From a virus, in the IMG/VR virus record IMGVR_UViG_3300035698_012504, positions 122,694-186,693 of that record: a DNA stretch of 64,000 bases; one strand, written 5' to 3'. This document shows, one piece after another, positions 570 to 57,650 of this stretch (its first letter is position 1; each line of letters opens with the position of its first letter). The notes under the pieces were generated by a model that worked only from the letters and a program-made list of their open reading frames with translations, was not told the origin of the DNA and made no database searches. Made by a program: the position numbers and the translations under genes.

Positions 570-1322
570 ACTGGTGGTGTATCTGAGCTGAAACGATATG
601 ATATAATTGAAGCAGTTATGAAAAACGTAGAAGAGGTGTTACGAGATAAAGTAACATCAAGATTAAAGCAAGTTGATAATACACTGATAGCAAAAGACGA
701 ATTTGTTAGACTTAGAATTCCGAGAAAGATATATAGAGATGAATATAGAATAGATATAGATGAGGAATATATTACTTTACCAAATGGATACTTCGATTTA
801 GTTATGGGAGATATTACAACTCCTGTTACAATCGAACAGGAGGTTAAGATATACCTTAAAGAAGGAGAGATGAGTAAGGATGAAGAATACATAGAAATAA
901 TCTTTCCTCCAGACTCCAAGTTAGTTGAAGTAGAACTCCAACAACAAGACCCAACTAAATTGGTTCAGAAAATGGATCAGATGGTTGGAGGAAAATCTCC
1001 ATGGACTACCCCAGTATCTCTCTTCATGAAGTTCTATGACATCTTAGGTCCAACTGGGTCATGGGATTCAGTACACTTAGAAGTAATTATATCTAATATA
1101 TTAAGAGCAAAAAAGGATCCGAAACAACCCGCTAGATTAAAGGTACCATTCGATCCAATTACATTCCCAATCAAAACTTTACCTTATGTAATTTCATGGC
1201 CGTTGGGGTTGGCCTTCGAAAATTTCGGAAAAGGGATCAGATATGGTTTAATATCTGACAGAGCGCCATCATCTAACATTGAAAAAGTATTGTTTGGTGA
1301 ACCATTAGTAGAAGAAAAATAA
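1..1322 (+). CDS. RNA polymerase beta-prime subunit, C-terminal fragment (5'-partial; intein plus trigger-loop/region G-H extein)
   Basis: Frame open from nt 3. After the intein end (..SHN/T at nt 569/570) the extein reads TGGVSELKRYDIIEA, resembling beta-prime DITGGLPRVAELFEAR. Later VHLEVIISNILRAKKD resembles region H RHIEVIVRQMLRK, and ISWPLGLAFENFGKGIRYG resembles SFISAASFQETTRVLTEAA. Stops at 1322. Confidence 0.6.
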   Translation, partial: NFDDIIINGCSTRPTKKQIIIYDRILSENMMLNHNRYSFEKRIGNDIINYSDEILSKILCGIIDGDGSFIPEKSRTYISMELTSVKLIQEIHHILNKFNINHNVTLSTVKPLTRHQSYTMKIYPSIEDKDIFKYSYKIDLEILPKKNERKKYDSLINYYKDVFWDNNEYVYDLTTETGTLSINGIFSHNTGGVSELKRYDIIEAVMKNVEEVLRDKVTSRLKQVDNTLIAKDEFVRLRIPRKIYRDEYRIDIDEEYITLPNGYFDLVMGDITTPVTIEQEVKIYLKEGEMSKDEEYIEIIFPPDSKLVEVELQQQDPTKLVQKMDQMVGGKSPWTTPVSLFMKFYDILGPTGSWDSVHLEVIISNILRAKKDPKQPARLKVPFDPITFPIKTLPYVISWPLGLAFENFGKGIRYGLISDRAPSSNIEKVLFGEPLVEEK

Positions 1323-1333
1323 AGAGAATCATA

Positions 1334-3079
1334 ATGTTTAGATGTGAAATATGTGATAGAGAATTTAAAGGAATAAGATCGTTAGGTGTCCACATTAAAA
1401 GAATACATATGATTGAAACATCTGAATATTATTTAAAATATATTAATTTTAATAATAAATGTAAAATTTGTTCTAAAGAAACCAATTTTATAAATCTATC
1501 TAAAGGATTTAGAAAATATTGTAGTGGGTCTTGTAGAAATAAAGATCCTTATTATCAAAATAAGATTAAAGATACTAATTTAAAAAAATATGGTTCGGTT
1601 TCCCATTTTAATAATAATAAAATTCGTGATAAAATAAAGAAAACAAACTTAAAAAGATATGGGGATGATAACGCATTTAAAAATAAAGAGATTCGTGAAA
1701 GACAGAAAAAAACCCTCATAGAAACCTATGGTGTGGACCATCAATCAAAAATACATTCTGTTAAAAAAATATTAAGTAAAAAATCCAAAGAAAATTATCC
1801 AAATTATATAGATCAGATTAAACAAACAAATTTAGAAAGATATGGAACAGAATATGCGATTGCTTCAGATGAATTAAAAGAAAAGATAAAAAAATCCAAT
1901 CTAAAAAAATATGGGGTAGATAATGTGTTCAAACTCAAATTTTTCCAAGATAAATCAAGAAAAACAATAAAAGAAAAATATGGTGTAGATCATATATCTC
2001 AAAGTGAAATAAGAAAGAAAACAATTTTTACGAATTACTACACCAAACTTTTAACAGCTGAAAAATTTACTTCGAAAATTCTTCCCCTTTTTAATTTAAA
2101 AGATTATGATGGTACTAATAATAAATATTCATGGAAATGTAATAAATGTGATAATGAATTTGAAGATCATTTAAACAATGGACATATACCTAGATGTAAA
2201 AAGTGTTATCCAATTTGGTCAGGATCCTCAAAACTTGAAAAAGAAGTTAGAGAATTTATTGAAACACTTAGCATTAATTTCACCTCTAATACTAGAAAAA
2301 TTATTTTTCCTTTTGAATTAGATGTTTATATTCCAGAAAAAAATATAGCTATAGAATTTAATGGATTATATTGGCATAGTGAATTAAATGGGAAAAATAA
2401 GAATTATCATCTAGATAAAAATTTGAAGTGTAAAGAAAAAGGAATTCAATTAATTCATATATTTGAAGATGAATGGATTAATAAACAAGAAATAGTTAAA
2501 TCTATTATTAAAAATAAATTGGGATTGACTGAGACAAAAATATACGCTAGAAAATGTTTAATAAAAAATATTAATAATAAAGAAGCAACTGATTTTTTGA
2601 ATGATAATCATGTACAGGGAAGAATAAATGGAAAACATGTTGGTCTATATTTTAAAGACGAGTTGGTATCCATTCTTACAATTGGAAAAACTAGATTTAA
2701 TAAAAAATACGAATATGAAATATTAAGATTTTGTAATAAAATTAATACGAATACTATCGGTGGGTTTAGTAAGTTGCTAAAATATGTTATTAAAAATCAT
2801 TCTATATGTTCTTTAATTACATATGCAGATATACGTTATAGTGATGGAAAGTTATATAACTCTTCCGGTTTTAATCAATTAAATAAATCTACACCAAACT
2901 ATTTTTACTTAGATAAAAACTATAATTCTAGATTGAGTAGAATTCAATTTCAAAAACATAAATTAAAAAATTTATTAGAATCATTTGATCCTAAGTTAAC
3001 TGAGTGGCAGAATATGCAACTCAATGGGTATGATCGTATTTGGGACTGTGGGAATTTAGTATATGAATATAACTTTTAA
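1334..3079 (+). CDS. free-standing homing-endonuclease-like protein (N-terminal C2H2-like zinc finger, tandem KYG(V/S)xN repeats, DUF559/Vsr-like PD-(D/E)XK nuclease domain)
   Basis: N-terminal CEICDREFKGIRSLGVHIKRIH. At least six repeats of the form NLK(K/R)YG..N....KI...I.K. Nuclease-like FPFELDVYIPEKNIAIEFNGLYWHSE...KNLKCKEKGIQLIHIFEDEW. Sits in the 12-22 nt gaps between the RNAP beta-prime C fragment and beta genes. Confidence 0.55.
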   Translation: MFRCEICDREFKGIRSLGVHIKRIHMIETSEYYLKYINFNNKCKICSKETNFINLSKGFRKYCSGSCRNKDPYYQNKIKDTNLKKYGSVSHFNNNKIRDKIKKTNLKRYGDDNAFKNKEIRERQKKTLIETYGVDHQSKIHSVKKILSKKSKENYPNYIDQIKQTNLERYGTEYAIASDELKEKIKKSNLKKYGVDNVFKLKFFQDKSRKTIKEKYGVDHISQSEIRKKTIFTNYYTKLLTAEKFTSKILPLFNLKDYDGTNNKYSWKCNKCDNEFEDHLNNGHIPRCKKCYPIWSGSSKLEKEVREFIETLSINFTSNTRKIIFPFELDVYIPEKNIAIEFNGLYWHSELNGKNKNYHLDKNLKCKEKGIQLIHIFEDEWINKQEIVKSIIKNKLGLTETKIYARKCLIKNINNKEATDFLNDNHVQGRINGKHVGLYFKDELVSILTIGKTRFNKKYEYEILRFCNKINTNTIGGFSKLLKYVIKNHSICSLITYADIRYSDGKLYNSSGFNQLNKSTPNYFYLDKNYNSRLSRIQFQKHKLKNLLESFDPKLTEWQNMQLNGYDRIWDCGNLVYEYNF

Positions 3080-3100: not shown

Positions 3101-6100
3101 ATGCAATATGCCAGTATAAAACCATTCAAACCGGTTACGAGTATTATAATTCCGCCGAAGGGAATTAAAGGAAAAAATGTATGCTTAGCAGTTTTTCCAG
3201 AGAACGATTTGTTCTTTGACTTCTATAGATTAATGGGAATAAAACCTGCGTTTGTTAAGCACGTTCATGTTCCTATAGTTCAGAAGCCGGTTCGAATTAG
3301 GTTGACTCCTACATACAAAAAAATAATCAAGTCTCATAAGTTGTTCCCATCACAAGGGCACTTCGGAGATTATACAAAAGTATCAGACAAAAACTTTTAT
3401 CTTGATATGAGTATGTATATAGCAGCTCTACAAGCGAAGTTTAAAATTACTAGATATAACTCTGGAAGAGCATACGTATCAATTCAAAAATTAATATCTG
3501 CTTTAGATAGTGTACCTGCAGAATCACACGAAAGAGTTATATTATATGCTGTCAATATAGATAAACCAATACCTAAGAAACTTTTAAGCAGAAGGATATA
3601 TCCTGTATGGGCCATGCTGTTTCAATACATTAGTGGCCGAACAGAATCTCTCCCATTCGATAAACTATTACTATTTATATATGGACAAGACGAAAAAAGA
3701 TTTGTATTATTGTATGATAAAGATAAGAAAGTAAATCTAGCTAGAATTAAAAGCTATCTTAAGAAACTTAAATCACTAGATAAAGATGATGAAGAAGCTG
3801 TCGAATCTGAGATCACCTCACAAAAAACTGTAGAAAATCTAAACTCTACCACAACACTTACAAATGTAGAGAAAGACAACGTTCAGAAAACAGTAGATGA
3901 ATACCTAGAAGTTGATCCGTCTGCCAAAGAAGAACCTATTGGGAATATAGTAGCTGCTGCGATTGCATATAAGGTAACAGGTAGTATTGAAAAAGCAAAA
4001 TCTATTTCTAAAAAGGCAACATCAACTGATAAAGAAAAAATAATACAAAACTATGCTAAAGATCTTATACCAAAACAAAAAGCCTATCCACAGATTAGAT
4101 CTGCTATGGTTAAGATGGCAAGTCCAGCAGATATAATAGATAATCAAGTTCCTACTCACCTCCTTGAGAAAAGAAAGAGAGACTTTGCTGAGAATTTAGT
4201 TGAGGATTTAACTGATGCATTCAAGGTCTTAGAAAATAAAGATATGCCTCTGAAGGTTAAAGATATAGAAGTTAAAACTATGAAGTCTCCTCCCAGTGAT
4301 CTAACCCCTACAATCAAGGATAGATATACCGTGACTATGACTGATGATAAAGGAGTAGACCAGACTGTATATATGGATCTCCCTCACCTTACAGAGAACG
4401 GAACGTTTATGATATATGGTCAGGAGAATGTATTAATCAATCAGATTATACCTTATCCTATATTCTTTCTAAAACCATACCTTGGTAGGTTTGAATCATC
4501 TTACTCTACTGTAGCAATATATAGCAAGAGACTTAAAAGAACTTCTTATTTAATGATTCATATAGGTAACTATAAAATTCCATTGACTATGTTCATGGCA
4601 TATAAATATGGATTAAAACAATGTCTAAATCTATTTGGAATGAAATATACTCTTACTGATAAAAAAGATGGAGAGAATTCTCTAAAGTTACATGATGGAA
4701 CATTCATTAATTTTACATTCGAAGATGATATACTTGGACCAGAGGTAATTGAATCATTTAGATTTGCTCTTCCTAGTATTCCAGAAGGAGAAGATATAGA
4801 ATCTTCTGAGACATGGCAACACGGACTGGAATCATATACAGATAATAGAAACTGTGTTGATACTATGGATCAGATATGGGCAAATATTGTGACCCCTATA
4901 GAGATTAAAATTCTTAAATCAAAAGGGGATCCTACTAATATAAGAGACATAATTATATTCATAGCTAAGGAAGTTGTTCGTGGTCGAGTAGATGATAGAA
5001 ATGGTTGTGATAAACTCAGAATAAGATCGTCTGAATTGTTTGTGGCATTAGCACAGAAGCAGGTACTGATGGCATACAATGAGTATATGAGTAAGAGAGC
5101 GGGTGGAGATACAACTGCTACTCTATATATAAATCCTACGTCTGTGTTCACTGATGTTATAACCTCTCAGAACGTTGCTATATTAGAAAATATAAATCCC
5201 GTTGAAGAGTTATCAACAATGACAAGAATATCCCCTGTTGGTATTGGTGGTGTTCCTAAGTCGGAAGCATTTCCAAGACAGGCTATGAACGTCCACCCAA
5301 CATACTTCGGATGTATAGATCCTTTAGATACACCAAACGGGCCAGGGGTTGGATTCCAGCAGCATCTGACAGTCGGTGCGACAATAAGTAATGTCAGAGG
5401 TCAGATGATTGTTAAGGATAGAAAGAATGTTAAAGCCACGGAAATATTAAGTGTCAGTCCAGCGTTAATACCATTTGTAGAATCGAATGAAGGTGCTAGA
5501 GTTACTATGGCTGCCGGTCAGCAGAAACAGGCAGTGCCTATTAAATTCCCAGAGAACCCTGCGGTTCAAACAGGATACGAAGCATGTCTCACCCCACTTC
5601 TATCAGATAGCTTTATTAAGAAGAGCCCAGTGGACGGAGAGATTGTAGATATAAAGGATGGATTTATTTTAGTACTTGATAAAAGTGGAAAGACTCATGT
5701 AGTTGGTACTCGTCCAGCTAACCTTAAGAGTGGTGGCGGTCAGGATGGGCTAAGTGTATTTCATCCAACTGTTAAACTAAAACAGAAGGTTAAAGAAGGA
5801 ACTATCATAGCAGAAGGGGCCAATGTTAAGGACGGATTAATATCTAATGGTGTTAATATGTTGACTGGAATGATGCCATGGAAAGGATATAATTTTGAGG
5901 ATGGTATGGTGATAAGTGAGTCAGCAGCGGCGAAATTCATATCTGTTCACGCAGAACATAACGAAGCACTCGTCACCCCAGAAGAAGATATATCATTCAT
6001 ACAAAGCATCGGAAACACAATTAGAAAAGGAGACATCCTCCTGACATATTCAACAGCAATATATGATGTACAGGCAAACAAACATATACGAGCAGAGAAC

Positions 6101-7144
6101 GGACGTGTAACAGACATAGAAGTATATTCTAATGTACCTGAAGATGCTATACCAGAAAAGCTATTACCAGCATATGAACGATTTAGAGATCAATATAAAA
6201 CATTGCATGGTAAATATCCTATAGGACACTTCAGAGAGAAGGGTGAGAAGTTTGAAGGGATTAAAGTAAAATTTATTATTGCACAAGAGCTTAGTATATT
6301 TAAAGGAGATAAACTTAATAATCGTCACTTCAACAAGGGAGTTGTTGCTATCATTGAGAAGGATGAAAATATGCCTGAGACTCCTTGGGGTGATAAATTG
6401 GAGATGTTATATAATCCATTAAGTATTTTAAATAGAATGATTACTGGTCAGTTATTAGAAATGGCAACTGGATTAGTAGCTAAAAGAATTGCAGATCTAA
6501 TGGAAGAACTACCAAGAAAGAGATTCGAAGTAATATATCATAAGATACTTGTACTAATGGATGGAACTAAAGGAAAGACATATAGTAAACGGGTACATCA
6601 AAAGATGTCAGCATTATCTGATCCAGCATATGAAACAATTAGAAAACAAGTTATAAAGAATGGATTCGTTCCAATTATATGTGCTCCATTTAAGAGTCCA
6701 GATAGAAAAGCAATTGAGGTAGCTCTGAAGTTAGTTGGTAGATCGGCTAGAACTAAATTAAAGATAGCTCATTTAGGTGTGACAACAGAACCAGTAGCAG
6801 TAGGATATGTTTATGTTAACAAGCTTGAGCATATGTCAGAGAAGAAGATCCACTCCAGAGGAACAGGCGGATATAATTCAATAACATTTCAACCAACTGC
6901 AGGTAAAAGGAAAGGTGGTGGTCAGAAGTTAGGTGAGTATGATATGTATTCTTTATTAGGATGGAATTGTCCCACTCTAATTGATGAGTTCTTTGGACCA
7001 CTTAGTGCCGATCATGCTACAAAGAACCAGATGGTATCTGAAATACATCAAACTGGATCTACAGAATTTAAGACTCCTGTTCATAATCCAGTTAAAGATC
7101 TATTCTCTCAGATGATGACAGCCATACACTTGGAGTCTGAATAA
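3101..7144 (+). CDS. multisubunit RNA polymerase beta subunit (full length, set 1)
   Basis: LPHLTENGTFMIYGQENVLINQIIPYPIFF (beta region D: GTFxINGxERV). GQQKQAVPI. FKGDKLNNRHFNKGVVAIIEKDENMP (GDKxxxRHGNKGV). HSRGTGGYNSITFQPTAGKRKGGGQKLGEYDMYSLLGW (GGQRFGEMEVWALEAYG). Confidence 0.9.
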   Translation: MQYASIKPFKPVTSIIIPPKGIKGKNVCLAVFPENDLFFDFYRLMGIKPAFVKHVHVPIVQKPVRIRLTPTYKKIIKSHKLFPSQGHFGDYTKVSDKNFYLDMSMYIAALQAKFKITRYNSGRAYVSIQKLISALDSVPAESHERVILYAVNIDKPIPKKLLSRRIYPVWAMLFQYISGRTESLPFDKLLLFIYGQDEKRFVLLYDKDKKVNLARIKSYLKKLKSLDKDDEEAVESEITSQKTVENLNSTTTLTNVEKDNVQKTVDEYLEVDPSAKEEPIGNIVAAAIAYKVTGSIEKAKSISKKATSTDKEKIIQNYAKDLIPKQKAYPQIRSAMVKMASPADIIDNQVPTHLLEKRKRDFAENLVEDLTDAFKVLENKDMPLKVKDIEVKTMKSPPSDLTPTIKDRYTVTMTDDKGVDQTVYMDLPHLTENGTFMIYGQENVLINQIIPYPIFFLKPYLGRFESSYSTVAIYSKRLKRTSYLMIHIGNYKIPLTMFMAYKYGLKQCLNLFGMKYTLTDKKDGENSLKLHDGTFINFTFEDDILGPEVIESFRFALPSIPEGEDIESSETWQHGLESYTDNRNCVDTMDQIWANIVTPIEIKILKSKGDPTNIRDIIIFIAKEVVRGRVDDRNGCDKLRIRSSELFVALAQKQVLMAYNEYMSKRAGGDTTATLYINPTSVFTDVITSQNVAILENINPVEELSTMTRISPVGIGGVPKSEAFPRQAMNVHPTYFGCIDPLDTPNGPGVGFQQHLTVGATISNVRGQMIVKDRKNVKATEILSVSPALIPFVESNEGARVTMAAGQQKQAVPIKFPENPAVQTGYEACLTPLLSDSFIKKSPVDGEIVDIKDGFILVLDKSGKTHVVGTRPANLKSGGGQDGLSVFHPTVKLKQKVKEGTIIAEGANVKDGLISNGVNMLTGMMPWKGYNFEDGMVISESAAAKFISVHAEHNEALVTPEEDISFIQSIGNTIRKGDILLTYSTAIYDVQANKHIRAENGRVTDIEVYSNVPEDAIPEKLLPAYERFRDQYKTLHGKYPIGHFREKGEKFEGIKVKFIIAQELSIFKGDKLNNRHFNKGVVAIIEKDENMPETPWGDKLEMLYNPLSILNRMITGQLLEMATGLVAKRIADLMEELPRKRFEVIYHKILVLMDGTKGKTYSKRVHQKMSALSDPAYETIRKQVIKNGFVPIICAPFKSPDRKAIEVALKLVGRSARTKLKIAHLGVTTEPVAVGYVYVNKLEHMSEKKIHSRGTGGYNSITFQPTAGKRKGGGQKLGEYDMYSLLGWNCPTLIDEFFGPLSADHATKNQMVSEIHQTGSTEFKTPVHNPVKDLFSQMMTAIHLESE

Positions 7145-8646: not shown

Positions 8647-8692
8647 AACGGTTAAAAAACGACCAAAAATAGCCATTTTCTAGGGTTTTACT

Positions 8693-8716
8693 ATATATAT
8701 TAATTAGTGAGAAGGA
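8693..8716 (+). promoter_or_regulatory. copy 1 of conserved promoter-like motif TATATATTAATTAGTGAGAAGG
   Basis: One of four near-identical AT-rich motifs (consensus TATATATTAAATAGTGA) found only in intergenic regions upstream of small GC-rich genes. Contains TATATTA, reminiscent of phiKZ-type early promoters. Confidence 0.45.
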
Positions 8717-8798
8717 CAGGTTCAACCGTGTTTTACCAGTCTTTCTCCTCTCTTACCGGTACGTACTGGTGAGGGAGAAGCTGAGTTGGGTTTCCCGT

Positions 8799-8810
8799 CT
8801 AATAAAGAAT
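8799..8810. repeat. 12-bp direct repeat CTAATAAAGAAT (left copy) flanking the GC-rich cassette
   Basis: An identical 12-mer recurs at 9179-9190. The two copies bracket a roughly 370-bp segment of anomalously high GC. Confidence 0.4.
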
Positions 8811-8856
8811 TTTAATTGGGCGTGTTACCTACACTACACACATGAGGAGCAGGATT

Positions 8857-9081
8857 ATGGATCTCTTTGGAGCAATCGGAACGGCAATGGAAATCGTAGA
8901 AGAAGGTGCGGAGGTCGCTGAAGGACTCTCACCATTGGCCCTCGGTGGAATCGTCGCAGCCAGTGCCGTCGCCGGTGGCATCACCGTGGCAGCGATCACC
9001 CACACCATGGGCAAGGGCGGCACGGAGGGCAAGAAGAAGAAGAGCAAGAAGGAAAAGGCAGCCGCCCCCGCCACCGCCTAG
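8857..9081 (+). CDS. small GC-rich membrane protein (hydrophobic Ala/Gly-rich helix plus Lys-rich tail)
   Basis: SD GAGGAG 8 nt upstream of ATG 8857. MDLFGAIG...LALGGIVAASAVAGGITVAAI...KKKKSKKEKAAAPATA. Codon usage is GC-rich, unlike the rest of the window. Bracketed by the promoter motif and a strong hairpin. Confidence 0.45.
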   Translation: MDLFGAIGTAMEIVEEGAEVAEGLSPLALGGIVAASAVAGGITVAAITHTMGKGGTEGKKKKSKKEKAAAPATA

Positions 9082-9130
9082 TTACAACAGTCTTAACGAC
9101 ACGCGCCGAGCTGGCGGAGTCGCAGAGGTA

Positions 9131-9173
9131 GAGACGCGATCACTGGAGAGAAATCTCCTGGTGGTCGCGTCTC
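9131..9173 (+). terminator. strong 13-bp-stem hairpin (terminator-like, no U tract)
   Basis: GAGACGCGATCAC...GTGGTCGCGTCTC inverted repeat with a 17-nt loop, directly after the small GC-rich gene. Confidence 0.4.
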
Positions 9174-9178
9174 ATACC

Positions 9179-9190
9179 CTAATAAAGAAT
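9179..9190. repeat. 12-bp direct repeat CTAATAAAGAAT (right copy)
   Basis: Identical to 8799-8810. Confidence 0.4.
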
Positions 9191-9231
9191 CAAAATATTT
9201 TTGTTTTAAAATAAAAAGGAGAACGTGTATT

Positions 9232-9567
9232 ATGTTTACAGTTGAACAAAAGTCGTCGAATTTCAGTGTTGGTGGACAACTAATAGGATTTGATGGAGGT
9301 GGAGCAGACAATGAATTAATACTAAAATTTAGAACTAGAGTAGGAGATGTTGAAATAACTATACCAAATGTTTCCCCAATGGTTATTAAACTAATGCAAA
9401 AAGTTGGAGTGAATAATTTAAAGGGTCAGGTGCTTGATCTAGATAGAAATAGATTGAATGCTGAATCTGTACACCAAGAGACAGCAACGGTAGTTGGGTC
9501 AGGTATGCAGAAAAAAGGAGAAGAAGTTACTCCTGCAGTAGTAGTTGGCGCAGGAGTCCAGAAGTAG
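9232..9567 (+). CDS. hypothetical protein
   Basis: 111-aa ORF with SD AAAAGGAGA upstream. Confidence 0.35.
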   Translation: MFTVEQKSSNFSVGGQLIGFDGGGADNELILKFRTRVGDVEITIPNVSPMVIKLMQKVGVNNLKGQVLDLDRNRLNAESVHQETATVVGSGMQKKGEEVTPAVVVGAGVQK

Positions 9568-10240
9568 AACGAAAACAGAAAGGTCTCTAATGAGAATCCA
9601 AAAGCTCTTGGTAGAACGGGGTGTAGTTTACCCCTCTGCTGTAGCGAAAATGCTATTGGCAAAAGAAGTTATCGAACACATTTTATTAAAGTTCAGAGAG
9701 AAGACTAATTTAAGTTGGGAAAATCGTCCTCCTAAGGATGAGAAGTGTAAGAAATCAGTAACATTGGAAGTTGTAACTTCAGTAGATAAATGTTATAAAG
9801 TTGAGAACTGGGTCGACATCGATGGAATCGAAGGTCCGTTCTTAATGAAAAATAATATTGTATTTTATAATAGAACTGAGAAATTACTACTAGTAATAAT
9901 GTGTCCGTCGTTTATGAATATCCCAACAGAGATAACAGATGTCTGGGTTAGAAGAGTAATTCCATTCACATATGGCGTAGAAGATTTTACAGTCCCTGAA
10001 GTTGTAGGTACTGTGAACTTCGAAGAGTTCTTCAATCGGGCAGTGTTCTCTACCATATTTGGAAAAGGTCAGGACGAAGTCATTAAACTTCATAGAGTAT
10101 ATGGTACATTCCAATGGGCGATCTCAACCATTGAAAGCAAATTAAGAAGACCTGAAGTATTATCAGATGATGTAGTTACGGACACCCCACCGAAGGTTGT
10201 TGAACCAGTGGCGGATGAGGTATCTGTAATAGTTACTTAA
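9545..10240 (+). CDS. hypothetical protein
   Basis: 231-aa ORF. No motif recognised. Confidence 0.4.
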   Translation: MAQESRSRTKTERSLMRIQKLLVERGVVYPSAVAKMLLAKEVIEHILLKFREKTNLSWENRPPKDEKCKKSVTLEVVTSVDKCYKVENWVDIDGIEGPFLMKNNIVFYNRTEKLLLVIMCPSFMNIPTEITDVWVRRVIPFTYGVEDFTVPEVVGTVNFEEFFNRAVFSTIFGKGQDEVIKLHRVYGTFQWAISTIESKLRRPEVLSDDVVTDTPPKVVEPVADEVSVIVT

Positions 10241-11035: not shown

Positions 11036-11052
11036 GAATAATTTGGTTAGTC

Positions 11053-11077
11053 GGGGGCTCCTATTGTAGGGGCCCCC
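11053..11077 (+). terminator. GC-rich hairpin GGGGGCTC-loop-GGGCCCCC (terminator or processing-site candidate)
   Basis: 8-bp G/C stem in AT-rich DNA just after the stop of the 10256-11035 gene. No U tract. Confidence 0.35.
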
Positions 11078-11093
11078 AAACCTAAGGATTAAT

Positions 11094-15336: not shown

Positions 15337-17832
15337 ATGTTAATACGAAAGTCAGGTATCATCCTTCCGAAAGATGACCCTCAGTTAGAGTTGATAAAAT
15401 CAGACCTCACTAGGAAAGTCTTTCAGTGGGATGGATCATGGAAAACTATGACCTTTTACGAGGACATGTCAGACTACATAGTTATCCCTAGATTCTACCC
15501 TGCTCTTGGAAAAATAAGAGATGATAGAACTGACGGAGATGATATAGAAATAGAATCAAAAATAAAACCTTTGAATTCTAGACAAGAGAAGGTGATGAAC
15601 TTTCTTGAGAAAACAGAGAATTGTATACTTAGACTCGAACCTGGGAGTGGGAAAGCTCAACCAATTTATTCTAAAATATTGACACCTATTGGTTGGAAAA
15701 ACCTTCAAGATATTCAAATCGGGGATAATGTAATTGATCCAGTATCTGGAAGAAATGTAAAGGTATTAGGTGTTTTTCCTCAAGGTAAAAAAGAAGTATA
15801 TAAATTAACTTTTAATGATGGAGCCACAACGTTTTGTTGTAATGATCATTTATGGAAAGTAAAATATAAAAGATCATGTATTGGTGAAAAAGAATATTGG
15901 AAGATTAAACCATTAAATGATTTAAAAAATGATTATTATATAGATAAACAAAAAAGACTTAAATATTTTATCCCAATTACATCTCCTATTGAATTTGAAA
16001 ATCAAGAAATAAAAATAGACCCTTATCTTTTAGGTTGTTTGCTTGGAGATGGAACAATTAGATTTGGTGGTGGAACTATATCGTTATCTTCCAGGGATAA
16101 AGAATTGATAGAAACTTGTTCGGTGTTATTAGATAAATATAATCTTGAGTTCAAAAAAGATAACAAATATGACTACAGAATAAGAATTAAAAATAATAAG
16201 TTTAGAAAAAAATTTAGAAAAAAAGGAAAATATTTAAATCCTTTAAAAATATATTTGGATGAATTGGGTCTTCTGGGTAAAAAATCATATGAAAAATTTA
16301 TACCAAATACATATAAATTTAATTCTATGTATAATCGAATTAGTATTCTACAAGGACTCTTGGATACCGATGGATATGTTTCAGATAAAAAACAAGAAGT
16401 TAGTTTTTCATCTACATCTTATACGTTATGTAAAGATGTTAAATTTATAGTTGATAGTCTTGGTGGAAAATCCAAAATATATCCAAAACAAACATATTAT
16501 ACATATAAAAATATTAAGAAAAAAGGAAGACCTTCCTGGGTAGTAAATATAACTTTAGATAAAAATATAATTCCATTTAGATTATCTCGAAAAGTTAAAA
16601 GATATAATAATATTCATAAATATCCTCCTTCGAGAGCAATAAAAGATATTAAATATATTGGAAAAGAAGAATGTCAATGTATAAAAGTTGATTCAGATGA
16701 TGGATTATACATAACTGATGATTTTATAGTAACACATAATACTGTTACAGCAATAGAAACTATATGTAGATTAAAGAAACGAACTATTATATTTGCTCAT
16801 AAAACAGAACTATTAGATCAATGGAGAGGTGAATTTCTTAAACATACTAATCTAACAGAAGATGATATTCAGAAGGTTAATACAGACGATAAGAAGTTTG
16901 ATGGCTGTCTGAAAAAGAAAATCATTTTATGTACACCCCATACTATATCTGTAGCTATTAGATTAAATAAAAAAGATTTCATACGCGCATTATTAAAAGC
17001 AGGCATAGGTATTTGTTTTATAGACGAATGCCATGTTGGAATAGGTCCAGAGGAATTCTCCAAGAGTTCAATTTATATAAACGCCAAACGAATATATGGA
17101 TTATCTGCTACACCATTTAGACCAGATGGAAATGATGACATAATAAGATATCACCTCGGAGAGGTAAAGTATTTTCCTCCGGAGAAAGATGAACTAATAA
17201 ACCCCAAAGTTCTTATGGTACATATGCCGTTCCATGTATTTGAAACATATAATATGAAACAAAATTTAATGTGGGGAGGACGATTTCAGAATGCTAGATA
17301 CTGGAATCTATTGGCGAAGCAACCTAAGTATATTCATAATGTTGCGTCGATTATAAAGAGAGCATACACAGAGGGAAGAAATATATTAGTACTTGGCAAT
17401 AGAGTTCAGGGTCTAATGAACATGGCCGAGGCATGTAATATTCATAAAAAAGACATCGGTATATTTATGAGCACTGCCACCAGTGAACATAAGAAAAGAG
17501 TTCTAGAACTTTCAGATACTACAGATCTTAAAGAAGCATTCTATAAAAAGCGAGTTGTGTTTTCTACATATGGTATGGCTAGGGATGGAAACAACAGAAA
17601 AGATTTAGACTTTCTTGTATTATGTATACCGACTGGCAACATAGAACAAGCAGTGGGTAGAGTTCAGAGAGAACTCAAGGGGAAACGTAGACCAATAGTA
17701 ATAGATTTAGTAGATACCCAAAGTCCTAAGAATAAATCTGGAAATTATATATTTGAATACCAGGCACAGAGAAGGAAAGAATTCTATGCTAAGATGGGTT
17801 GGAAAGTTGAGACGATATTTTTTAAAGAATAA
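15337..17832 (+). CDS. SF2 (DExH) DNA/RNA helicase interrupted by an intein in the Walker A motif
   Basis: The extein reads ...LEPGSGK|TVTAIE... (Walker A GSGKT once the intein is removed). CFIDECH (motif II), LSATP (motif III), QAVGRVQR (motif VI). Confidence 0.8.
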   Translation: MLIRKSGIILPKDDPQLELIKSDLTRKVFQWDGSWKTMTFYEDMSDYIVIPRFYPALGKIRDDRTDGDDIEIESKIKPLNSRQEKVMNFLEKTENCILRLEPGSGKAQPIYSKILTPIGWKNLQDIQIGDNVIDPVSGRNVKVLGVFPQGKKEVYKLTFNDGATTFCCNDHLWKVKYKRSCIGEKEYWKIKPLNDLKNDYYIDKQKRLKYFIPITSPIEFENQEIKIDPYLLGCLLGDGTIRFGGGTISLSSRDKELIETCSVLLDKYNLEFKKDNKYDYRIRIKNNKFRKKFRKKGKYLNPLKIYLDELGLLGKKSYEKFIPNTYKFNSMYNRISILQGLLDTDGYVSDKKQEVSFSSTSYTLCKDVKFIVDSLGGKSKIYPKQTYYTYKNIKKKGRPSWVVNITLDKNIIPFRLSRKVKRYNNIHKYPPSRAIKDIKYIGKEECQCIKVDSDDGLYITDDFIVTHNTVTAIETICRLKKRTIIFAHKTELLDQWRGEFLKHTNLTEDDIQKVNTDDKKFDGCLKKKIILCTPHTISVAIRLNKKDFIRALLKAGIGICFIDECHVGIGPEEFSKSSIYINAKRIYGLSATPFRPDGNDDIIRYHLGEVKYFPPEKDELINPKVLMVHMPFHVFETYNMKQNLMWGGRFQNARYWNLLAKQPKYIHNVASIIKRAYTEGRNILVLGNRVQGLMNMAEACNIHKKDIGIFMSTATSEHKKRVLELSDTTDLKEAFYKKRVVFSTYGMARDGNNRKDLDFLVLCIPTGNIEQAVGRVQRELKGKRRPIVIDLVDTQSPKNKSGNYIFEYQAQRRKEFYAKMGWKVETIFFKE
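15655..16740 (+). mobile_element. LAGLIDADG intein (362 aa) apparently beginning with Ala rather than Cys/Ser
   Basis: Block A AQPIYSKILTPIGWKNLQDIQIGDNV. Two LAGLIDADG motifs, LLGCLLGDGTIRFGGG and ISILQGLLDTDGYVSD. C-terminal DDFIVTHN followed by +1 Thr (TVTAIE). Removal recreates GSGKT. Confidence 0.7.
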
Positions 17833-19460: not shown

Positions 19461-19620
19461 ACCCCTAGATACTTTAGATCTTAATGATGCATCATCAGAT
19501 GAATTAATTAATGTATTACAGGAGCATGAGGAAGTATTAGAATCTATTGAGAGTAATGAACCTAACGAGGAAGTCAAACTAGAGTTGTTTGACGGTGGAG
19601 AAATCAGAAAGGACGGCTGA
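19396..19620 (+). CDS. hypothetical acidic protein
   Basis: 74-aa ORF in a different frame overlapping the previous ORF by 65 nt. Its end abuts the start of the next gene. Confidence 0.3.
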   Translation: MPTWINLKNSKRKSKSKKSAAEPLDTLDLNDASSDELINVLQEHEEVLESIESNEPNEEVKLELFDGGEIRKDG

Positions 19621-22253: not shown

Positions 22254-22264
22254 CAATACAATTT

Positions 22265-22292
22265 CCAGGGGGAGGAATGGTTCTCCCCCTGG
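22265..22292 (+). terminator. GC-rich hairpin CCAGGGGGAGG-loop-TCTCCCCCTGG
   Basis: 11-bp stem immediately after the stop of the 19620-22253 gene. No U tract. Confidence 0.35.
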
Positions 22293-32502: not shown

Positions 32503-32506
32503 TACG

Positions 32507-32532
32507 ATTATATATATTAAATAATGAAGTGG
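32507..32532 (+). promoter_or_regulatory. copy 2 of conserved promoter-like motif (ATTATATATATTAAATAATGAAGTGG)
   Basis: Same TATATATTAAATA(G/A)TGA core as 8693, 55121 and 56918. Roughly 100 nt upstream of an SD-led small gene. Confidence 0.45.
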
Positions 32533-32630
32533 TATTTATACCAATGTCTCATACGTATGAGGCATCTTCAGCTGAGGAAAAATTAAGAGCACCAAACTTT
32601 TTTATTTTAATAAAAATAAGGAGAATCAAA

Positions 32631-32906
32631 ATGAGTAATAGATTTTATTCAGGCGGTCCCATAGGTGCAATGAGCGGATCTCGTTGTGACTTTTGTGGAT
32701 ACATACATCCACCGCCAGTAGGAGAAGCATGTCCTAATAAAAAGAAAAACAACTCAACCTGGAGAGAGCGTGGAGATGAAATAGAACAGCTTGTAGAGGA
32801 GGTGTCTAATGCTGTTCTATCGTCAAAGCACTACAAACATCTCATAAAAGAGATAACGGAGGCAATGAAACGAGATGCCGCAAAGAACGGAGTCCCCAGA
32901 AAGTAA
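32631..32906 (+). CDS. small zinc-ribbon protein
   Basis: SD AAGGAG 7 nt upstream of ATG 32631. CDFCGYIHPPPVGEACPNKK. The upstream GTG-started extension in the ORF track is probably leader sequence. Confidence 0.45.
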   Translation: MSNRFYSGGPIGAMSGSRCDFCGYIHPPPVGEACPNKKKNNSTWRERGDEIEQLVEEVSNAVLSSKHYKHLIKEITEAMKRDAAKNGVPRK

Positions 32907-55116: not shown

Positions 55117-55120
55117 TACT

Positions 55121-55145
55121 ATACATATTAAATAGTGAGAACACA
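55121..55145 (+). promoter_or_regulatory. copy 3 of conserved promoter-like motif (ATACATATTAAATAGTGAGAACACA)
   Basis: Same core as 8693, 32507 and 56918. Followed by SD AAAGGAG and a GC-rich small ORF. Confidence 0.45.
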
Positions 55146-55515
55146 TTTTCAGAAAGGAGTATTGTTGCCAACCATCCAGGACGAAAGGATAAACCGTTTA
55201 AGAAATTCCAAAAATACGCAGGTATCTGAGCGTGTTCTCAGAGAAAATGCGGCTTTGCGTAAGCAGGTTGAGGGTCTCCAGCAGGGCTCGACAGTTCCAG
55301 CTCGAAGTGTTTGTGGCGTTTTAGTAAGAAAAGGTGACATCCAAACGGTAGTTGCCAATTCTATGCACGTATTCCTTTCTTCATTGATTGGTAATGAATT
55401 CGGCGGTGTTGGTGAACTAGTCGCTGCCGGTGTCGCGGTGGCAACTGGTACATTGATTGAAGAAATCTTCCCAGAGGTTCAGTCTGAGGAAGACCTTGAT
55501 GCTGATGAGGAATAA
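55135..55515 (+). CDS. small GC-rich protein (start uncertain; possibly TTG 55162 behind AAAGGAG)
   Basis: The ORF track starts at a GTG inside the promoter motif. The coding part is GC-rich relative to the window and ends at a canonical terminator. Confidence 0.4.
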   Translation: MRTHFQKGVLLPTIQDERINRLRNSKNTQVSERVLRENAALRKQVEGLQQGSTVPARSVCGVLVRKGDIQTVVANSMHVFLSSLIGNEFGGVGELVAAGVAVATGTLIEEIFPEVQSEEDLDADEE

Positions 55516-55520
55516 AAAAG

Positions 55521-55552
55521 AGGGGGTGCACTGCAACACCCTTTCTTTTTTT
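55521..55552 (+). terminator. rho-independent terminator
   Basis: AGGGGGTG-CACTGCAA-CACCCTTT stem-loop followed by CTTTCTTTTTTT. Confidence 0.65.
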
Positions 55553-56917: not shown

Positions 56918-56946
56918 GATTATATATATTAAATAGTGACAGCACA
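56918..56946 (+). promoter_or_regulatory. copy 4 of conserved promoter-like motif (GATTATATATATTAAATAGTGACAGCACA)
   Basis: Same core. The 3' end forms the hairpin AGTGACA-GCACACGT-TGTCACT. Followed by SD GAAAGGAGAG and a GC-rich small gene. Confidence 0.45.
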
Positions 56947-56985
56947 CGTTGTCACTATCATTTCAAGCACCCCGAAAGGAGAGCC

Positions 56986-57219
56986 ATGAGTGGTAGTATT
57001 TGGAATGCAATTCGGGAAGCGGGATTAGATCCTGCAGACGTCGATGACAATCTGCTTGGAGCTTTGAAGGCTCAGAAGAAGATGCGAAAACTTCTTCGAG
57101 GCAAAGCCCTCCAGAAGACATCTGGCCCTAAAGTACCTCTTTCCATAAGAGCTGCTAAGAGTAAGCGGAACAAATCACGACAGAGAAAGGAGAGACGGAA
57201 AAATAGAAGTTCTAAGTAG
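56986..57219 (+). CDS. small basic protein (Arg/Lys-rich C-terminus)
   Basis: 77 aa, ending ...AKSKRNKSRQRKERRKNRSSK. GC content higher than the surrounding sequence. Confidence 0.45.
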   Translation: MSGSIWNAIREAGLDPADVDDNLLGALKAQKKMRKLLRGKALQKTSGPKVPLSIRAAKSKRNKSRQRKERRKNRSSK

Positions 57220-57229
57220 TATCCGATCC

Positions 57230-57650
57230 GGAAACACTTCTATAACTTCAAGTTGCCCTTTAGAAAATGGATCTCCTAAAGGCGAGAGTTCACATGGATG
57301 TGCAACTGAGGGATGTTTAAGAGGCATTCCAGGAAGGGGTTCTGCATGAAAGCAGACAAGTGTTCGGCAAGATTTCGATGTGGTGGTCGTATTGTGGTAC
57401 GAGATGAAGAGTCATCTTCCATGACAGATGGAAAGCTCCCTGCCGAGGGGCTTGCATGGGATGGTATTATATCATTCAAGAAGATGCTACTCGTACTGAA
57501 AGATACTCTTCAAATAGCCCAAAGGGCTTTAATCATATCAATACCCTTATCTGTGTGCTGGCCCGATGAGGGTCAGTACCGTATATTTTTTATTTCTTTT
57601 TTTATTTAATTTGATAATATAAAGAAAAATGAGGACAAACTATAAACGAT
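57230..57650 (+). other. GC-rich, hairpin-dense non-coding island upstream of the terminase gene (candidate structured RNA or packaging site)
   Basis: About 420 nt at roughly 47% GC, against about 33% for the window. No convincing ORF. Multiple short inverted repeats (TCTGC-ATGAAA-GCAGA; GAAGAGTCATCTTC). Confidence 0.3.

What the first reader, a model, noticed from the sequence alone, without database searches (positions are those of the whole stretch)
8693..8716. Conserved promoter-like motif TATATATTAAATAGTGA (4 copies) driving small GC-rich genes
Near-identical 17-25-nt AT-rich motifs occur at 8693, 32507, 55121 and 56918, with a weaker variant near 17848. All are intergenic and all are followed by a leader, a strong SD and a small gene or island whose GC content is markedly higher than the window average (8857-9081, 32631-32906, 55135-55515, 56986-57219). 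The TATATTA core resembles phiKZ-type early promoters read by the virion RNAP. The GC-rich small genes may form a co-regulated class of early, possibly host-takeover, genes.
Basis: partly seen in the sequence, partly recalled or inferred. Interest (0 to 1): 0.6.

Follow-up and report, generated by a model that had tools for sequence, protein, structure and literature searches.

The report
Phage RNA-polymerase promoter motif, clade-wide
A 20-base AT-rich sequence found four times in this uncultivated phage is almost certainly a promoter read by the phage's own multi-subunit RNA polymerase; it is nearly invariant across a whole clade of such phages and closely resembles the mapped early promoters of giant phages AR9 and phiKZ.

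Summary
The motif CTATATATATTAAWTANTGA occurs four times in the window (8691, 32508, 55119, 56920). All four copies are on the + strand and intergenic, and each is followed by a leader, a Shine-Dalgarno site and a small GC-rich gene. They score 26-29 bits against 10 bits for the next best site. The "variant" at 17848 is not a member.

The window comes from a phage of the mReC lineage (tailed phages encoding multi-subunit RNA polymerase). It encodes two beta paralogues and a beta'.

- **Conservation:** the same 20-mer recurs in relatives with only 38-49% terminase identity and 22-37% GC: 49 hits against 1 in shuffles, and 51 of 59 intergenic.
- **Position:** it precedes small ORFs, tRNAs, a structured non-coding RNA, a beta'-beta operon and a replication block. 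It never directly precedes the terminase.
- **Form:** it has no -35 element. It shares ATATATTA plus a conserved purine 6-7 nt downstream with AR9 and phiKZ-type virion-polymerase early promoters.

Best reading: a phage-polymerase promoter, probably of the early class. GC-richness of the downstream genes is real in the window but is not clade-wide. Many units behave as autonomous, variably present cassettes. This is a new member of a known kind. No transcription start or timing has been measured.

The parts
8691..8710 (+). Promoter-like motif copy 1, CTATATATATTAATTAGTGA
   Evidence: 29.0 bits, the top score in the window. It lies in the intergenic gap 8647-8856. A relative (L266) has the motif at the same position, between the beta-like paralogue and the gyrB block.
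8709..8856 (+). Structured GC-rich 5' leader: two strong hairpins, the first starting at the G of TGA, then the Shine-Dalgarno site GAGGAG
   Evidence: MFE -53.8 kcal/mol, z = -4.0. The first hairpin has z = -2.6.
8857..9081 (+). 74-aa ORF, 61% GC, predicted membrane-type small protein; strict ORFan
   Evidence: GC z = +4.7. No Pfam or PHROG hit. It matches only itself among 5.8 billion proteins.
9124..9180 (+). Very stable 3' hairpin after the 74-aa ORF (possible terminator or stabiliser; no T-run)
   Evidence: Fold of 9079-9235: -56.9 kcal/mol, z = -7.25.
32508..32527 (+). Promoter-like motif copy 2, TTATATATATTAAATAATGA
   Evidence: 26.9 bits. It lies in gap 32503-32630, just after the SbcC-like gene.
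32526..32570 (+). 5' leader hairpins starting at the G of TGA
   Evidence: -14.7 kcal/mol, z = -2.4.
32631..32906 (+). 91-aa gene (GC 0.43). It overlaps the next gene (32875-33756), so this unit probably continues downstream.
   Evidence: Weak PHROG hit to a transcriptional regulator, E = 0.0013.
55119..55138 (+). Promoter-like motif copy 3, CTATACATATTAAATAGTGA
   Evidence: 26.0 bits. It lies in gap 55117-55164.
55165..55515 (+). 116-aa gene (TTG start at 55162 or 55165; GC 0.46), ORFan
55514..55551 (+). Intrinsic-terminator-like hairpin plus T-run that closes cassette 3
   Evidence: 15-pair stem followed by a T-run.
56920..56939 (+). Promoter-like motif copy 4, TTATATATATTAAATAGTGA
   Evidence: 26.9 bits. 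The orthologous copy in L035 (2266-2285) sits at the same junction, after the 419-aa gene homologue.
56938..56953 (+). 5' hairpin starting at the G of TGA. The L035 orthologue has a hairpin at the same place with an unrelated stem sequence.
   Evidence: z = -1.9 for the window, -1.5 for L035.
56986..57219 (+). 77-aa very basic protein (GC 0.45), homologous to the 59-aa protein after the L035 motif
57220..57609 (+). GC-elevated, probably non-coding 3' region. ORF 57313-57609 is doubtful. A terminator-like hairpin lies at 57555-57579.
   Evidence: The L035 counterpart has no ORF. Terminator scan.
42271..48698 (+). Adjacent unsplit beta' (932 aa) and beta (1005 aa) genes: one candidate reader of the motif, or a product of motif-driven transcription
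   Evidence: Pfam Rpb1 and Rpb2 domains. In relative L259 the motif heads the operon that contains the orthologues.
3101..7144 (+). Second beta-like paralogue (1347 aa): evidence for a second polymerase
   Evidence: Pfam Rpb2_6 E = 2e-37 and Rpb2_3. Orthologue at 38% identity in L266.

Best explanation
The 20-nt block [CT]TATATATATTAAWTANTGA is a single-block promoter recognised by a phage-encoded multi-subunit RNA polymerase of an mReC-lineage phage. Transcription starts at or next to the conserved G/A at its 3' end.

By analogy with AR9 and phiKZ, it is most likely the early-class promoter. In that model the polymerase delivered with the virion reads it. It then drives small accessory genes, tRNAs and small RNAs, and the operons for replication functions and the second polymerase.

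In the window it starts four units:
- Two are short self-contained cassettes in the packaging/structural region, closed by terminator-like hairpins (55119-55551 and 56920-57580).
- Two sit at the heads of long gene arrays (8691 and 32508).

Many transcripts begin with a stem-loop at the very 5' end, which probably stabilises them.

**Shown:** sequence, position, strand, conservation, absence of a -35 element, and similarity to mapped promoters.
**Inferred:** promoter activity, which polymerase reads it, early timing, the exact +1, and the role of the hairpins.
For: 1. **Non-random and bimodal.** The four sites score 26-29 bits against 10.3 for the next best site. Shuffles give 0 expected.
2. 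**Directional and intergenic.**
   - In 133 non-redundant related loci (1.79 Mb) there are 49 hits of at least 16 bits, against 1 in shuffles.
   - 51 of 59 hits of at least 14 bits are intergenic, although only about 7% of the DNA is intergenic.
   - 34 of 45 intergenic hits are followed, on the same strand, by a Shine-Dalgarno site and an ORF. Median leader is 45 nt and median first ORF is 67 aa.
3. **It also precedes non-coding genes.** A tRNA-Arg starts 9 nt after the motif in L107. A tRNA starts 24 nt after it in L199. A 160-nt structured RNA (z = -9) follows it in L036. The element therefore acts on transcription, not translation.
4. **Near-invariance across distant genomes.**
   - Relatives have 38-49% terminase identity and 22-37% GC.
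   - A MAG-binned relative has 19 sites and another has 6.
   - This argues for a conserved phage-encoded reader.
   - 36 loci carry the beta orthologue.
   - Contigs L130 and L213 are listed as mReC phages.
5. **No -35 or other upstream element**. The sigma-70 scans did not flag the sites.
6. **Resemblance to mapped early promoters read by virion polymerase.**
   - AR9: AAATATATATTAT-N6-G+1 (sites read).
   - phiKZ, 201phi2-1 and OBP: TATATTAC/ATATTAT-N5-TG.
   - General description: an AT-rich block of about 10 nt at about -10.
7. **Division of labour with a second motif.**
   - The motif never directly precedes the terminase or other conserved packaging genes (0 of 41).
   - A second motif, AGAACAAA, directly precedes the terminase in 76 loci.
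   - In L259 the motif heads the beta'-beta operon. In AR9 and phiKZ the non-virion polymerase genes are likewise early.
8. **Autonomous units.**
   - At the junction between the 419-aa gene and the terminase, 51 loci have no insert and no motif.
   - About 48 loci have inserts of 275-1500 nt.
   - 19 of those inserts carry the motif, mostly antisense to the flanking genes.
9. **5' hairpins are enriched.** Mean z is -0.94 against -0.21 in controls, p = 0.004. In about 10 of 45 sites the stem starts exactly at the G of TGA.
Against: - No transcription start site, timing or polymerase-dependence data exist for any member of this lineage.
- It is unknown whether any mReC polymerase is packaged in virions.
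- The block contains -10-like hexamers (TATATT, TATTAA) at a plausible distance from the conserved purine, so a host sigma-70-family enzyme is not formally excluded.
- The spacing from ATATATTA to the conserved G is one base shorter than in AR9 and phiKZ-type promoters.
- The strict mReC weight matrix does not score AR9 promoters.
- The window's beta and beta' genes are unsplit, unlike those of AR9 and phiKZ. Homology of the recognition mechanism is therefore assumed, not shown.
- In the window the beta'-beta genes lie 9.7 kb from the nearest upstream motif.
- In L037 the one copy points antisense into a gene end, with only a hairpin after it.
Confidence: 0.6

Rival explanations
1. It is a promoter for a phage-encoded polymerase or specificity factor, but not of the early/virion class. 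For example, it could be a middle-class or constitutive promoter read by the polymerase made after infection.
For: - All the evidence for promoter function applies equally.
- Nothing here measures timing.
- It is unknown whether mReC phages package a polymerase.
- The 8691 and 32508 sites head replication, modification and polymerase gene arrays, which are middle genes in many phages.
Against: - In every multi-subunit-polymerase phage studied, the long, highly conserved AT-rich block is the early promoter, and middle/late promoters are short and weak.
- A separate short AACA-containing motif occupies the terminase promoter position.
- Clusters of tiny ORFs each with its own copy (8 copies in 7 kb in L102, 6 in L104) look like early regions.
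Confidence: 0.2
2. It is a strong promoter read by host RNA polymerase: a sigma-70/sigma-A -10 region without a -35 element.
For: TATATT and TATTAA hexamers lie about 7 nt upstream of the conserved purine. Many phages use host polymerase for their earliest genes.
Against: - There is no -35 element and no TG extension.
- Sites 8691, 32508 and 56920 were not picked up on the + strand by the sigma-70 scan; the one + strand hit near 55119 lies just upstream of the motif.
- 13 consecutive positions are essentially invariant over phages with 22-37% GC and very divergent proteins, which presumably have different hosts. Host promoters are not that uniform.
- In the 40 exact 20-mer matches among 185,579 species genomes, every contig with more than one match belonged to the phage-like CAYYIP and JAAOXY MAG contigs. 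Only the CAYYIP contigs were shown by protein homology to be mReC-related. All other hits were single copies.
Confidence: 0.1
3. The motif's main role is not initiation. It could be the boundary of a mobile regulatory cassette used for recombinational gene shuffling (as proposed for T4 PeSLs), or an operator for a DNA-binding regulator.
For: - Motif-bearing inserts are present or absent at the same junction in different relatives, and occur in either orientation.
- The associated genes are ORFans.
- Near-identical 20-mers could serve as micro-homology for recombination.
Against: - PeSLs are themselves promoters, so this reading adds to initiation rather than replacing it.
- The motif is strictly co-oriented with what follows it.
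- It has a fixed 3' G/A and is not palindromic.
- It also sits at conserved positions heading conserved operons.
Confidence: 0.05
4. It is an archaeal-type TATA-box/BRE promoter read by an archaeal host's machinery. Some relatives are binned in archaeal MAGs.
For: The TATATATA run resembles a TATA box. Three relatives are labelled archaeon or Aenigmatarchaeota.
Against: - The conserved block extends 12 nt past the TATA run to TGA. Archaeal promoters show little conservation there.
- A tRNA begins 9 nt after the block. A start about 25 nt from the TATA centre would fall on or past the tRNA's first base.
- Other relatives are binned with Hyphomicrobiales, so the bin labels are unreliable.
- Hairpin-plus-T-run terminators and strong Shine-Dalgarno use are present.
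Confidence: 0.03

Closest known systems
AR9 (PBS1-group) early promoters read by the virion multi-subunit RNA polymerase: AAATATATATTAT-(6N)-G+1
   Same: - It shares the 9-mer TATATATTA and a conserved purine 6-7 nt downstream.
- It is a single AT-rich block with no -35 element.
- It sits upstream of small genes, and in a relative upstream of polymerase genes.
- The genome encodes two beta paralogues.
- A second AACA-containing motif sits in front of late-type genes, as in the AR9 late promoter AACA-N6-TA/G.
   Different: - The spacing to the conserved G is one base shorter, and the block is longer (20 nt, with TAnTGA conserved).
- The beta and beta' genes are unsplit.
- Beta identity to AR9 is only 26%.
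- There is no evidence for uracil DNA.
- Nothing has been mapped experimentally.
phiKZ-group early promoters (phiKZ TATATTAC; 201phi2-1 TATATTAC-N5-TG; OBP and N1M2 ATATTAT-N5-TG)
   Same: The TATATTA core is followed by a TG a few bases downstream. It lies at about -10 and is highly conserved within and between related phages.
   Different: - phiKZ-type motifs also have a T-rich or TTT element upstream of -19. No such element is present here.
- The phage lineages differ.
- No phage-nucleus genes were examined here.
T4-type PeSLs (promoter-early stem-loop cassettes) and lambdoid 'morons'
   Same: Small ORFan genes each carry their own promoter and a flanking stem-loop or terminator. They are inserted between conserved genes and are variably present among relatives, in either orientation. 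The PeSL papers are PMC2839356 and PMC4122927; I saw only their titles and abstract openings.
   Different: PeSL and moron promoters are sigma-70 promoters read by host polymerase. Here the promoter type points to a phage polymerase. A recombination role has not been tested.
Single-block promoters of single-subunit phage polymerases (T7 class, about -17 to +6)
   Same: A contiguous block of about 20 nt that ends at the start site and is nearly identical at every copy in a genome.
   Different: No single-subunit polymerase gene was seen among the window proteins scanned. The sequence is unrelated. This comparison rests on my own knowledge of T7-class promoters.

Membership tests
Early promoters of multi-subunit-polymerase jumbo phages, read by the virion polymerase (AR9 / phiKZ type) | Highly conserved AT-rich block containing (T)ATATTA, centred near -10 | tested here: met
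   Positions -19 to -7 are essentially invariant (TATATATATTAA) in 45 sites. Compared with the AR9 consensus and annotated sites and the phiKZ-group consensus.
Early promoters of multi-subunit-polymerase jumbo phages, read by the virion polymerase (AR9 / phiKZ type) | Conserved transcription start 6 nt downstream of the block | tested here: inconclusive
   - A conserved G (34 of 45) and A (43 of 45) lie at the 6th and 7th nt after ATATATTAA.
- A tRNA starting 9 nt after the motif bounds the start site.
- 5' stems begin at that G.
- No start site has been mapped.
Early promoters of multi-subunit-polymerase jumbo phages, read by the virion polymerase (AR9 / phiKZ type) | No host-type -35 element | tested here: met
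   Information content is at most 0.35 bit at every position from -59 to -20.
Early promoters of multi-subunit-polymerase jumbo phages, read by the virion polymerase (AR9 / phiKZ type) | The genome encodes two sets of beta/beta' homologues (virion and non-virion polymerases) | tested here: inconclusive
   The window has two beta paralogues (1347 and 1005 aa) but only one beta'. Both beta paralogues are conserved in a distant relative. The rest of the 152-kb contig could not be fetched.
Early promoters of multi-subunit-polymerase jumbo phages, read by the virion polymerase (AR9 / phiKZ type) | Located in front of early genes, including the non-virion polymerase genes, and not in front of virion or packaging genes | tested here: inconclusive
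   The motif heads the beta'-beta operon in L259. It directly precedes conserved packaging genes in 0 of 41 copies, whereas AGAACAAA precedes the terminase in 76 loci. Gene timing itself is unknown.
Early promoters of multi-subunit-polymerase jumbo phages, read by the virion polymerase (AR9 / phiKZ type) | Transcribed early, without new protein synthesis, by a polymerase carried in the virion | not testable with these tools
   This needs infection time courses, translation inhibitors and virion proteomics. No cultured member is known to me.
phiKZ/AR9-type jumbo phages (as a phage group) | beta and beta' each split into two or more polypeptides | tested here: not met
   beta' (932 aa) and beta (1005 aa) carry the full Pfam domain series in single ORFs. 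The best cultured-phage matches are below 33% identity.
mReC lineage (multi-subunit-polymerase-encoding Caudovirales, Weinheimer & Aylward 2020) | Tailed-phage contig encoding both beta and beta' of a multi-subunit RNA polymerase, clustering with the published mReC contigs | tested here: met
   - beta' and beta are adjacent in the window, with a T4-type terminase.
- Terminase relatives include Ga0114923_10000049 (L130) and Ga0180432_10000070 (L213), both listed in the paper's supplementary tables.
- 36 relatives carry the beta orthologue.
- No polymerase phylogeny was run.
Host sigma-70-type promoter | -35 and -10 hexamers 16-18 nt apart (or a TG-extended -10) | tested here: not met
   There is no conserved -35 or TG. 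The consensus scan gives no hit on the + strand at three of the four motif sites (8691, 32508 and 56920). The one + strand hit near 55119 lies upstream of the motif.
PeSL / moron-type autonomous cassettes | A small non-conserved gene with its own promoter and terminator, inserted between conserved genes and variably present among relatives | tested here: met
   - Cassettes 55119-55551 and 56920-57580 have both a promoter motif and a terminator-like hairpin.
- The junction between the 419-aa gene and the terminase is polymorphic among relatives.
- The small proteins are ORFans.
PeSL / moron-type autonomous cassettes | The promoter is a host sigma-70 (early) promoter; the motif mediates recombinational shuffling | tested here: inconclusive
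   The sigma-70 architecture was tested and not met. Recombination at the motif could not be tested, because no closely related genome pairs were available.

The most novel reading that the evidence does not exclude
The mReC lineage and the AR9/phiKZ jumbo phages share one ancestral two-polymerase transcription programme with homologous promoter classes:
- an early class, (T)ATATTA followed by a purine start 6-7 nt downstream;
- a late class containing AACA about 10 nt before the start. Here this is tTTAGAACAAAnAATAAAGGAG in front of the terminase; in AR9 it is AACA-N6-TA/G.

Promoter recognition would then be an independent character linking the deep-branching mReC polymerases to the jumbo-phage polymerases. 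Sequence trees have not been able to place the latter.
Probability: 0.3. Interest if true: 0.7.

Novelty: new member of a known kind. Interest (0 to 1): 0.5.

Why it matters
The mReC phages were described for their deep-branching polymerase. That paper does not mention promoters at all, and my search of the held library for mReC promoters found nothing relevant.

A 20-nt, nearly invariant promoter candidate gives three things:
- a defined template for in vitro transcription with recombinant mReC polymerase;
- a way to split uncultivated mReC genomes into transcription units and likely temporal classes, together with the separate AGAACAAA motif in front of the terminase;
- a new character for asking whether the mReC and AR9/phiKZ polymerases share a promoter-recognition mechanism.

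It also marks a pool of tiny ORFan genes, tRNAs and small RNAs that are likely expressed first in infection.

Tried and rejected
- **Exact-motif scans of IMG/VR.** They returned 33 and 55 single-copy hits. None is related to the window by tblastx apart from generic topoisomerase-type matches, so these are chance matches.
- **Single-protein locus searches in IMG/VR.** They found nothing. Only the terminase alignment reached relatives.
- **Nucleotide search of cultured phages.** No match.
- **Fetching the rest of the 152-kb source contig.** Only short duplicate contigs could be fetched.
- **Rfam on the window and six relatives.** Only tRNAs were found.
- **Pfam and PHROGs on the small proteins.** One weak hit only.
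- **Homologue search for the 74-aa protein.** It matched only itself.
- **GC-richness as a property of the promoter class.** Rejected: clade-wide excess is +0.015, p = 0.46.
- **The 17848 "variant".** Rejected: -4.3 bits.
- **Scoring AR9 promoters with the mReC weight matrix.** It failed because the matrix is too strict, so the similarity claim rests on the aligned consensus, not on a score.
- **YerA41's annotated promoter.** The one promoter feature in the stretch fetched is annotated as sigma-70 -10/-35 boxes, which is not useful here.
- **ORF 57313-57609 as a fifth small gene.** Rejected: the L035 counterpart has no ORF.
- **Apparent strand switch after 60.3 kb.** Rejected: an open + strand ORF runs from 60283 to the window end.
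Full report
**1. The observation**

The 17-mer TATATATTAAATAGTGA matches four times with at most one mismatch, at 8694, 32511, 55122 and 56923. All four are on the + strand, and shuffles give 0.00 expected. With three mismatches allowed there are seven matches against 1.7 expected. The three extra matches lie inside genes.

Aligning the sites extends the conserved block to 20 nt, [CT]TATA[TC]ATATTAAWTARTGA. A weight matrix built from the clade splits the window cleanly.

All genes up to the window end are on the + strand. Only 14 gaps of at least 30 nt exist, and the four sites occupy four of them. Each is followed by a leader (146, 103, 23 and 46 nt), a strong Shine-Dalgarno site and a small ORF of 74, 91, 116 and 77 aa.

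The GC claim is correct for this window. The four genes have GC of 0.61, 0.43, 0.46 and 0.45, against a mean of 0.353 (sd 0.054). The p-value is 3e-6 against all genes and 2.6e-4 against other small genes. GC is raised at all three codon positions.

**2. What the window is**

It is a densely packed phage genome segment with about 35% GC. It encodes:
- an unsplit beta' (932 aa) next to an unsplit beta (1005 aa);
- a second beta-like paralogue (1347 aa);
- topoisomerase II subunits, an SbcC-like ATPase, an intein-bearing helicase, an RNA-repair-type ligase and a T4-type terminase.

It has no nucleotide match among cultured phages. Its beta is at most 33% identical to any cultured phage protein, and 26% identical to AR9.

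A terminase alignment recovered 160 related loci from metagenomes and IMG/VR at 38-49% identity. 36 of these carry the beta orthologue upstream of the terminase. Two of the contigs (Ga0114923_10000049 and Ga0180432_10000070) are listed as members of the "mReC" lineage in Weinheimer & Aylward 2020. That paper never mentions promoters. A search of the held library for mReC promoters returned nothing relevant.

**3. Behaviour of the motif across the clade**

- **Enrichment.** In 133 non-redundant loci (1.79 Mb) the matrix gives 49 hits of at least 16 bits, against 1 in shuffled sequence.
- **Location.** 51 of 59 hits of at least 14 bits are intergenic, although only about 7% of the DNA is intergenic.
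- **Boundaries.** The conserved block is sharply bounded. Positions -19 to -7 are essentially invariant, -5, -4, -2, -1 and +1 are strongly conserved, and nothing upstream of -20 carries information. There is no -35 element.
- **Direction.** 34 of 45 intergenic sites are followed on the same strand by a Shine-Dalgarno site and an ORF. Median leader is 45 nt and median first ORF is 67 aa.
- **Non-coding targets.** Other copies precede tRNAs, 9 nt away in L107 and 24 nt away in L199. In L036 a copy precedes a 160-nt strongly folded RNA with no ORF and a T-run at its end (z = -9). The element therefore works at the level of transcription.
- **Clusters.** Some loci hold arrays of tiny genes each with its own copy: 8 copies in 7 kb in L102 and 6 in 12.5 kb in L104.
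- **Cellular genomes.**
  - A scan of 185,579 species genomes for the exact 20-mer found multi-copy contigs only in phage-like contigs mis-binned into MAGs.
  - One MAG is labelled Hyphomicrobiales (22-25% GC, 19 distinct sites) and one is labelled Aenigmatarchaeota (6 sites).
  - The former carries orthologues of beta', beta and the beta-like paralogue.

The same 20-mer is thus kept almost base for base in genomes of 22-37% GC whose proteins have diverged to 30-50% identity.

**4. Positional conservation and what the motif drives**

- **L266.** The motif lies between the beta-like paralogue and the gene block leading to gyrB. This is the same place as the window's 8691 site.
- **L259.** The motif heads the operon that contains beta' and beta.
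- **L035.** This is the closest relative, at 51-69% protein identity. Its motif, a 5' hairpin and a homologous small basic protein occupy the same junction as the window's 56920 site.
- **The junction between the 419-aa gene and the terminase is polymorphic across the clade.**
  - 51 loci have the two genes adjacent and no motif.
  - About 48 have inserts of 275-1500 nt.
  - 19 of those inserts carry the motif, mostly antisense to the flanking genes.
- **Division of labour.** The motif never directly precedes the terminase or other conserved packaging-region genes (0 of 41). A different conserved motif, tTTAGAACAAAnAATAAAGGAG, directly precedes the terminase in 76 loci. The window has the variant AGGACAAA at 55569 and 57632. 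These are its only intergenic copies, and they lie 43 and 35 nt before the 419-aa gene and the terminase.

**5. Comparison with mapped promoters**

AR9 early promoters are read by the injected virion polymerase and are independent of protein synthesis. Their consensus is AAATATATATTAT-(6N)-G+1 (PMC5312081). I read eight annotated AR9 sites directly.

The review of jumbo-phage polymerases describes early promoters in general as highly conserved AT-rich blocks of about 10 nt centred near -10. It says they are findable bioinformatically in every such phage, whereas late promoters are short (PMC7598289).

Published consensus sequences for the phiKZ group are TATATTAC (phiKZ), TATATTAC-N5-TG (201phi2-1) and ATATTAT-N5-TG (OBP, N1M2) (PMC7058600).

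The present motif contains TATATATTA, followed by A, WTANT, G and A. It therefore has the same core and a conserved purine at the 6th and 7th base. The spacing to the G is one base shorter.

The second motif contains AACA followed about 5 nt later by TA. That recalls the AR9 late promoter AACA-N6-TA/G. This is a lead, not a test.

**6. Mechanism proposed**

*Shown:* sequence, strand, position, conservation, absence of a -35 element, association with coding and non-coding units, and cassette polymorphism.

*Inferred:*
- The block is a promoter read by a phage-encoded multi-subunit polymerase.
- Initiation is at the G/A of TGA.
- It belongs to the early class and is read by a virion-delivered enzyme.
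- In the window, the sites at 55119 and 56920 start short autonomous units in the packaging region. These are closed by terminator-like hairpins at 55514-55551 and 57555-57579.
- The sites at 8691 and 32508 start units that may read on into the replication/repair array and the modification/polymerase array. Only GC-rich hairpins without T-runs intervene.

5'-terminal stem-loops are enriched after the motif (mean z of -0.94 against -0.21, p = 0.004). In about 10 of 45 sites, including three of the four in the window, the stem begins exactly at the G of TGA. The orthologous pair of window 56920 and L035 keeps the hairpin with unrelated stem sequences. From general knowledge of bacterial mRNA decay, a stem at the extreme 5' end protects against 5'-end-dependent nucleases. 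I take the hairpins as transcript stabilisers and as indirect support for the predicted start.

**7. The GC-rich genes**

GC-richness holds for the window, L035, L036 and a minority of other sites, but not for the class as a whole. The four window proteins are ORFans.

Two readings remain open:
- The cassettes were acquired from elsewhere, in the manner of morons.
- Selection acts on the RNA or on codon usage. The small basic protein keeps its raised GC in both the window and L035 despite long divergence, which favours selection over recent transfer.

I could not discriminate further without knowing the host.

**8. Rivals**

A host sigma-70-type promoter is unlikely. There is no -35 or TG element, the motif is invariant across presumably different hosts, and multi-copy occurrences in cellular genomes are confined to phage-like contigs mis-binned into MAGs. 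An archaeal TATA-type promoter is unlikely because of the tRNA 9 nt after the block and the conserved 3' half. A non-early class of phage-polymerase promoter cannot be excluded. A role as recombination micro-homology (PeSL-like) may coexist with initiation.

**9. Verdict**

The interpretation needs three adjustments:
- Drop the 17848 site.
- GC-richness is local, not a class property.
- The motif drives more than small genes.

In kind, this is a new member of a known class: a phage-polymerase-specific promoter. It is found in a lineage for which the original mReC description does not mention promoters and my literature search of the held library turned up none.

Noticed in passing
window 55569-55576 and 57632-57639; relatives, e.g. 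L150 and L154, just upstream of the terminase: There is a second clade-wide motif, tTTAGAACAAAnAATAAAGGAG (window variant AGGACAAA), directly before the Shine-Dalgarno site of the terminase and of the 419-aa gene. AGAACAAA has 103 of 291 copies intergenic, and it precedes the terminase in 76 loci. It contains AACA, like the AR9 late promoter, so it is a candidate late-promoter class.
   Followed up: partly
window 11036-11093, 22254-22313, 34212-34246: Short gaps between long genes hold GC-rich GGGGG...CCCCC hairpins without a T-run. They may be terminators or attenuators for the phage polymerase, or RNA stabilisers.
   Followed up: no
window 9124-9180 and 8709-8856: The 61%-GC ORFan gene is bracketed by unusually stable RNA structures (z = -4.0 upstream, z = -7.3 downstream). 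CTAATAAAGAAT is repeated at 8799 and 9179, on either side of the ORF.
   Followed up: partly
window 57220-57609; L035 2520-2830: Downstream of the small basic protein gene lies a region of about 350-400 nt with elevated GC, ending in a terminator-like hairpin. ORF 57313-57609 has no counterpart ORF in L035, so this is probably a long 3' UTR or a non-coding RNA.
   Followed up: partly
window 35485-39307 (GC island at 37126-37500); L037 4700-5551: The window holds a cluster of ThiF-like, JAB-like and QueC-like/glutamine-amidotransferase genes, with a 55-60% GC island inside the JAB-like gene. A relative has GTP cyclohydrolase I. Together these suggest a 7-deazaguanine-type DNA or RNA modification pathway.
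   Followed up: no
window 19620-22253 and 25100-25993: A PNKP-type ligase fused to a methyltransferase domain, plus an RlaP-family nucleotidyltransferase. This is an RNA-repair-like module, possibly a counter to host tRNA-cleaving defences.
   Followed up: no
window 78-3079 and 15337-17832: There are LAGLIDADG domains in the first ORF and inside the helicase (intein-like), and a DUF7487/restriction-endonuclease-like ORF. These are selfish elements clustered next to the 1347-aa beta-like gene.
   Followed up: no
window 60283-64000: An open + strand reading frame of at least 1239 aa runs off the window end. The - strand ORFs listed there are probably spurious.
   Followed up: partly
L259-L296 (CAYYIP01 contigs), L267 and L287 (JAAOXY010000082.1), L036 (GCA_048619025.1): Phage contigs of this lineage are binned into MAGs labelled Hyphomicrobiales, Aenigmatarchaeota and 'archaeon'. 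The bin labels are unreliable as host evidence. L036 also carries an IS200/IS605 TnpA plus TnpB pair.
   Followed up: partly
L037 7384-7445 (- strand): One motif copy points antisense into the 3' end of a + strand gene. It is followed only by a perfect 14-bp hairpin and TTAGTTTT. This could be a tiny antisense RNA, or a hairpin shared with the + strand terminator.
   Followed up: no
L257 41440-41452 (AR9) versus L118, L146, L157, L161 around position 9874-9890: In AR9 an annotated early promoter on the opposite strand lies immediately upstream of the terminase gene. Many mReC relatives show the same arrangement, with the motif on the - strand about 110 nt before the terminase. This may be coincidence.
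   Followed up: no
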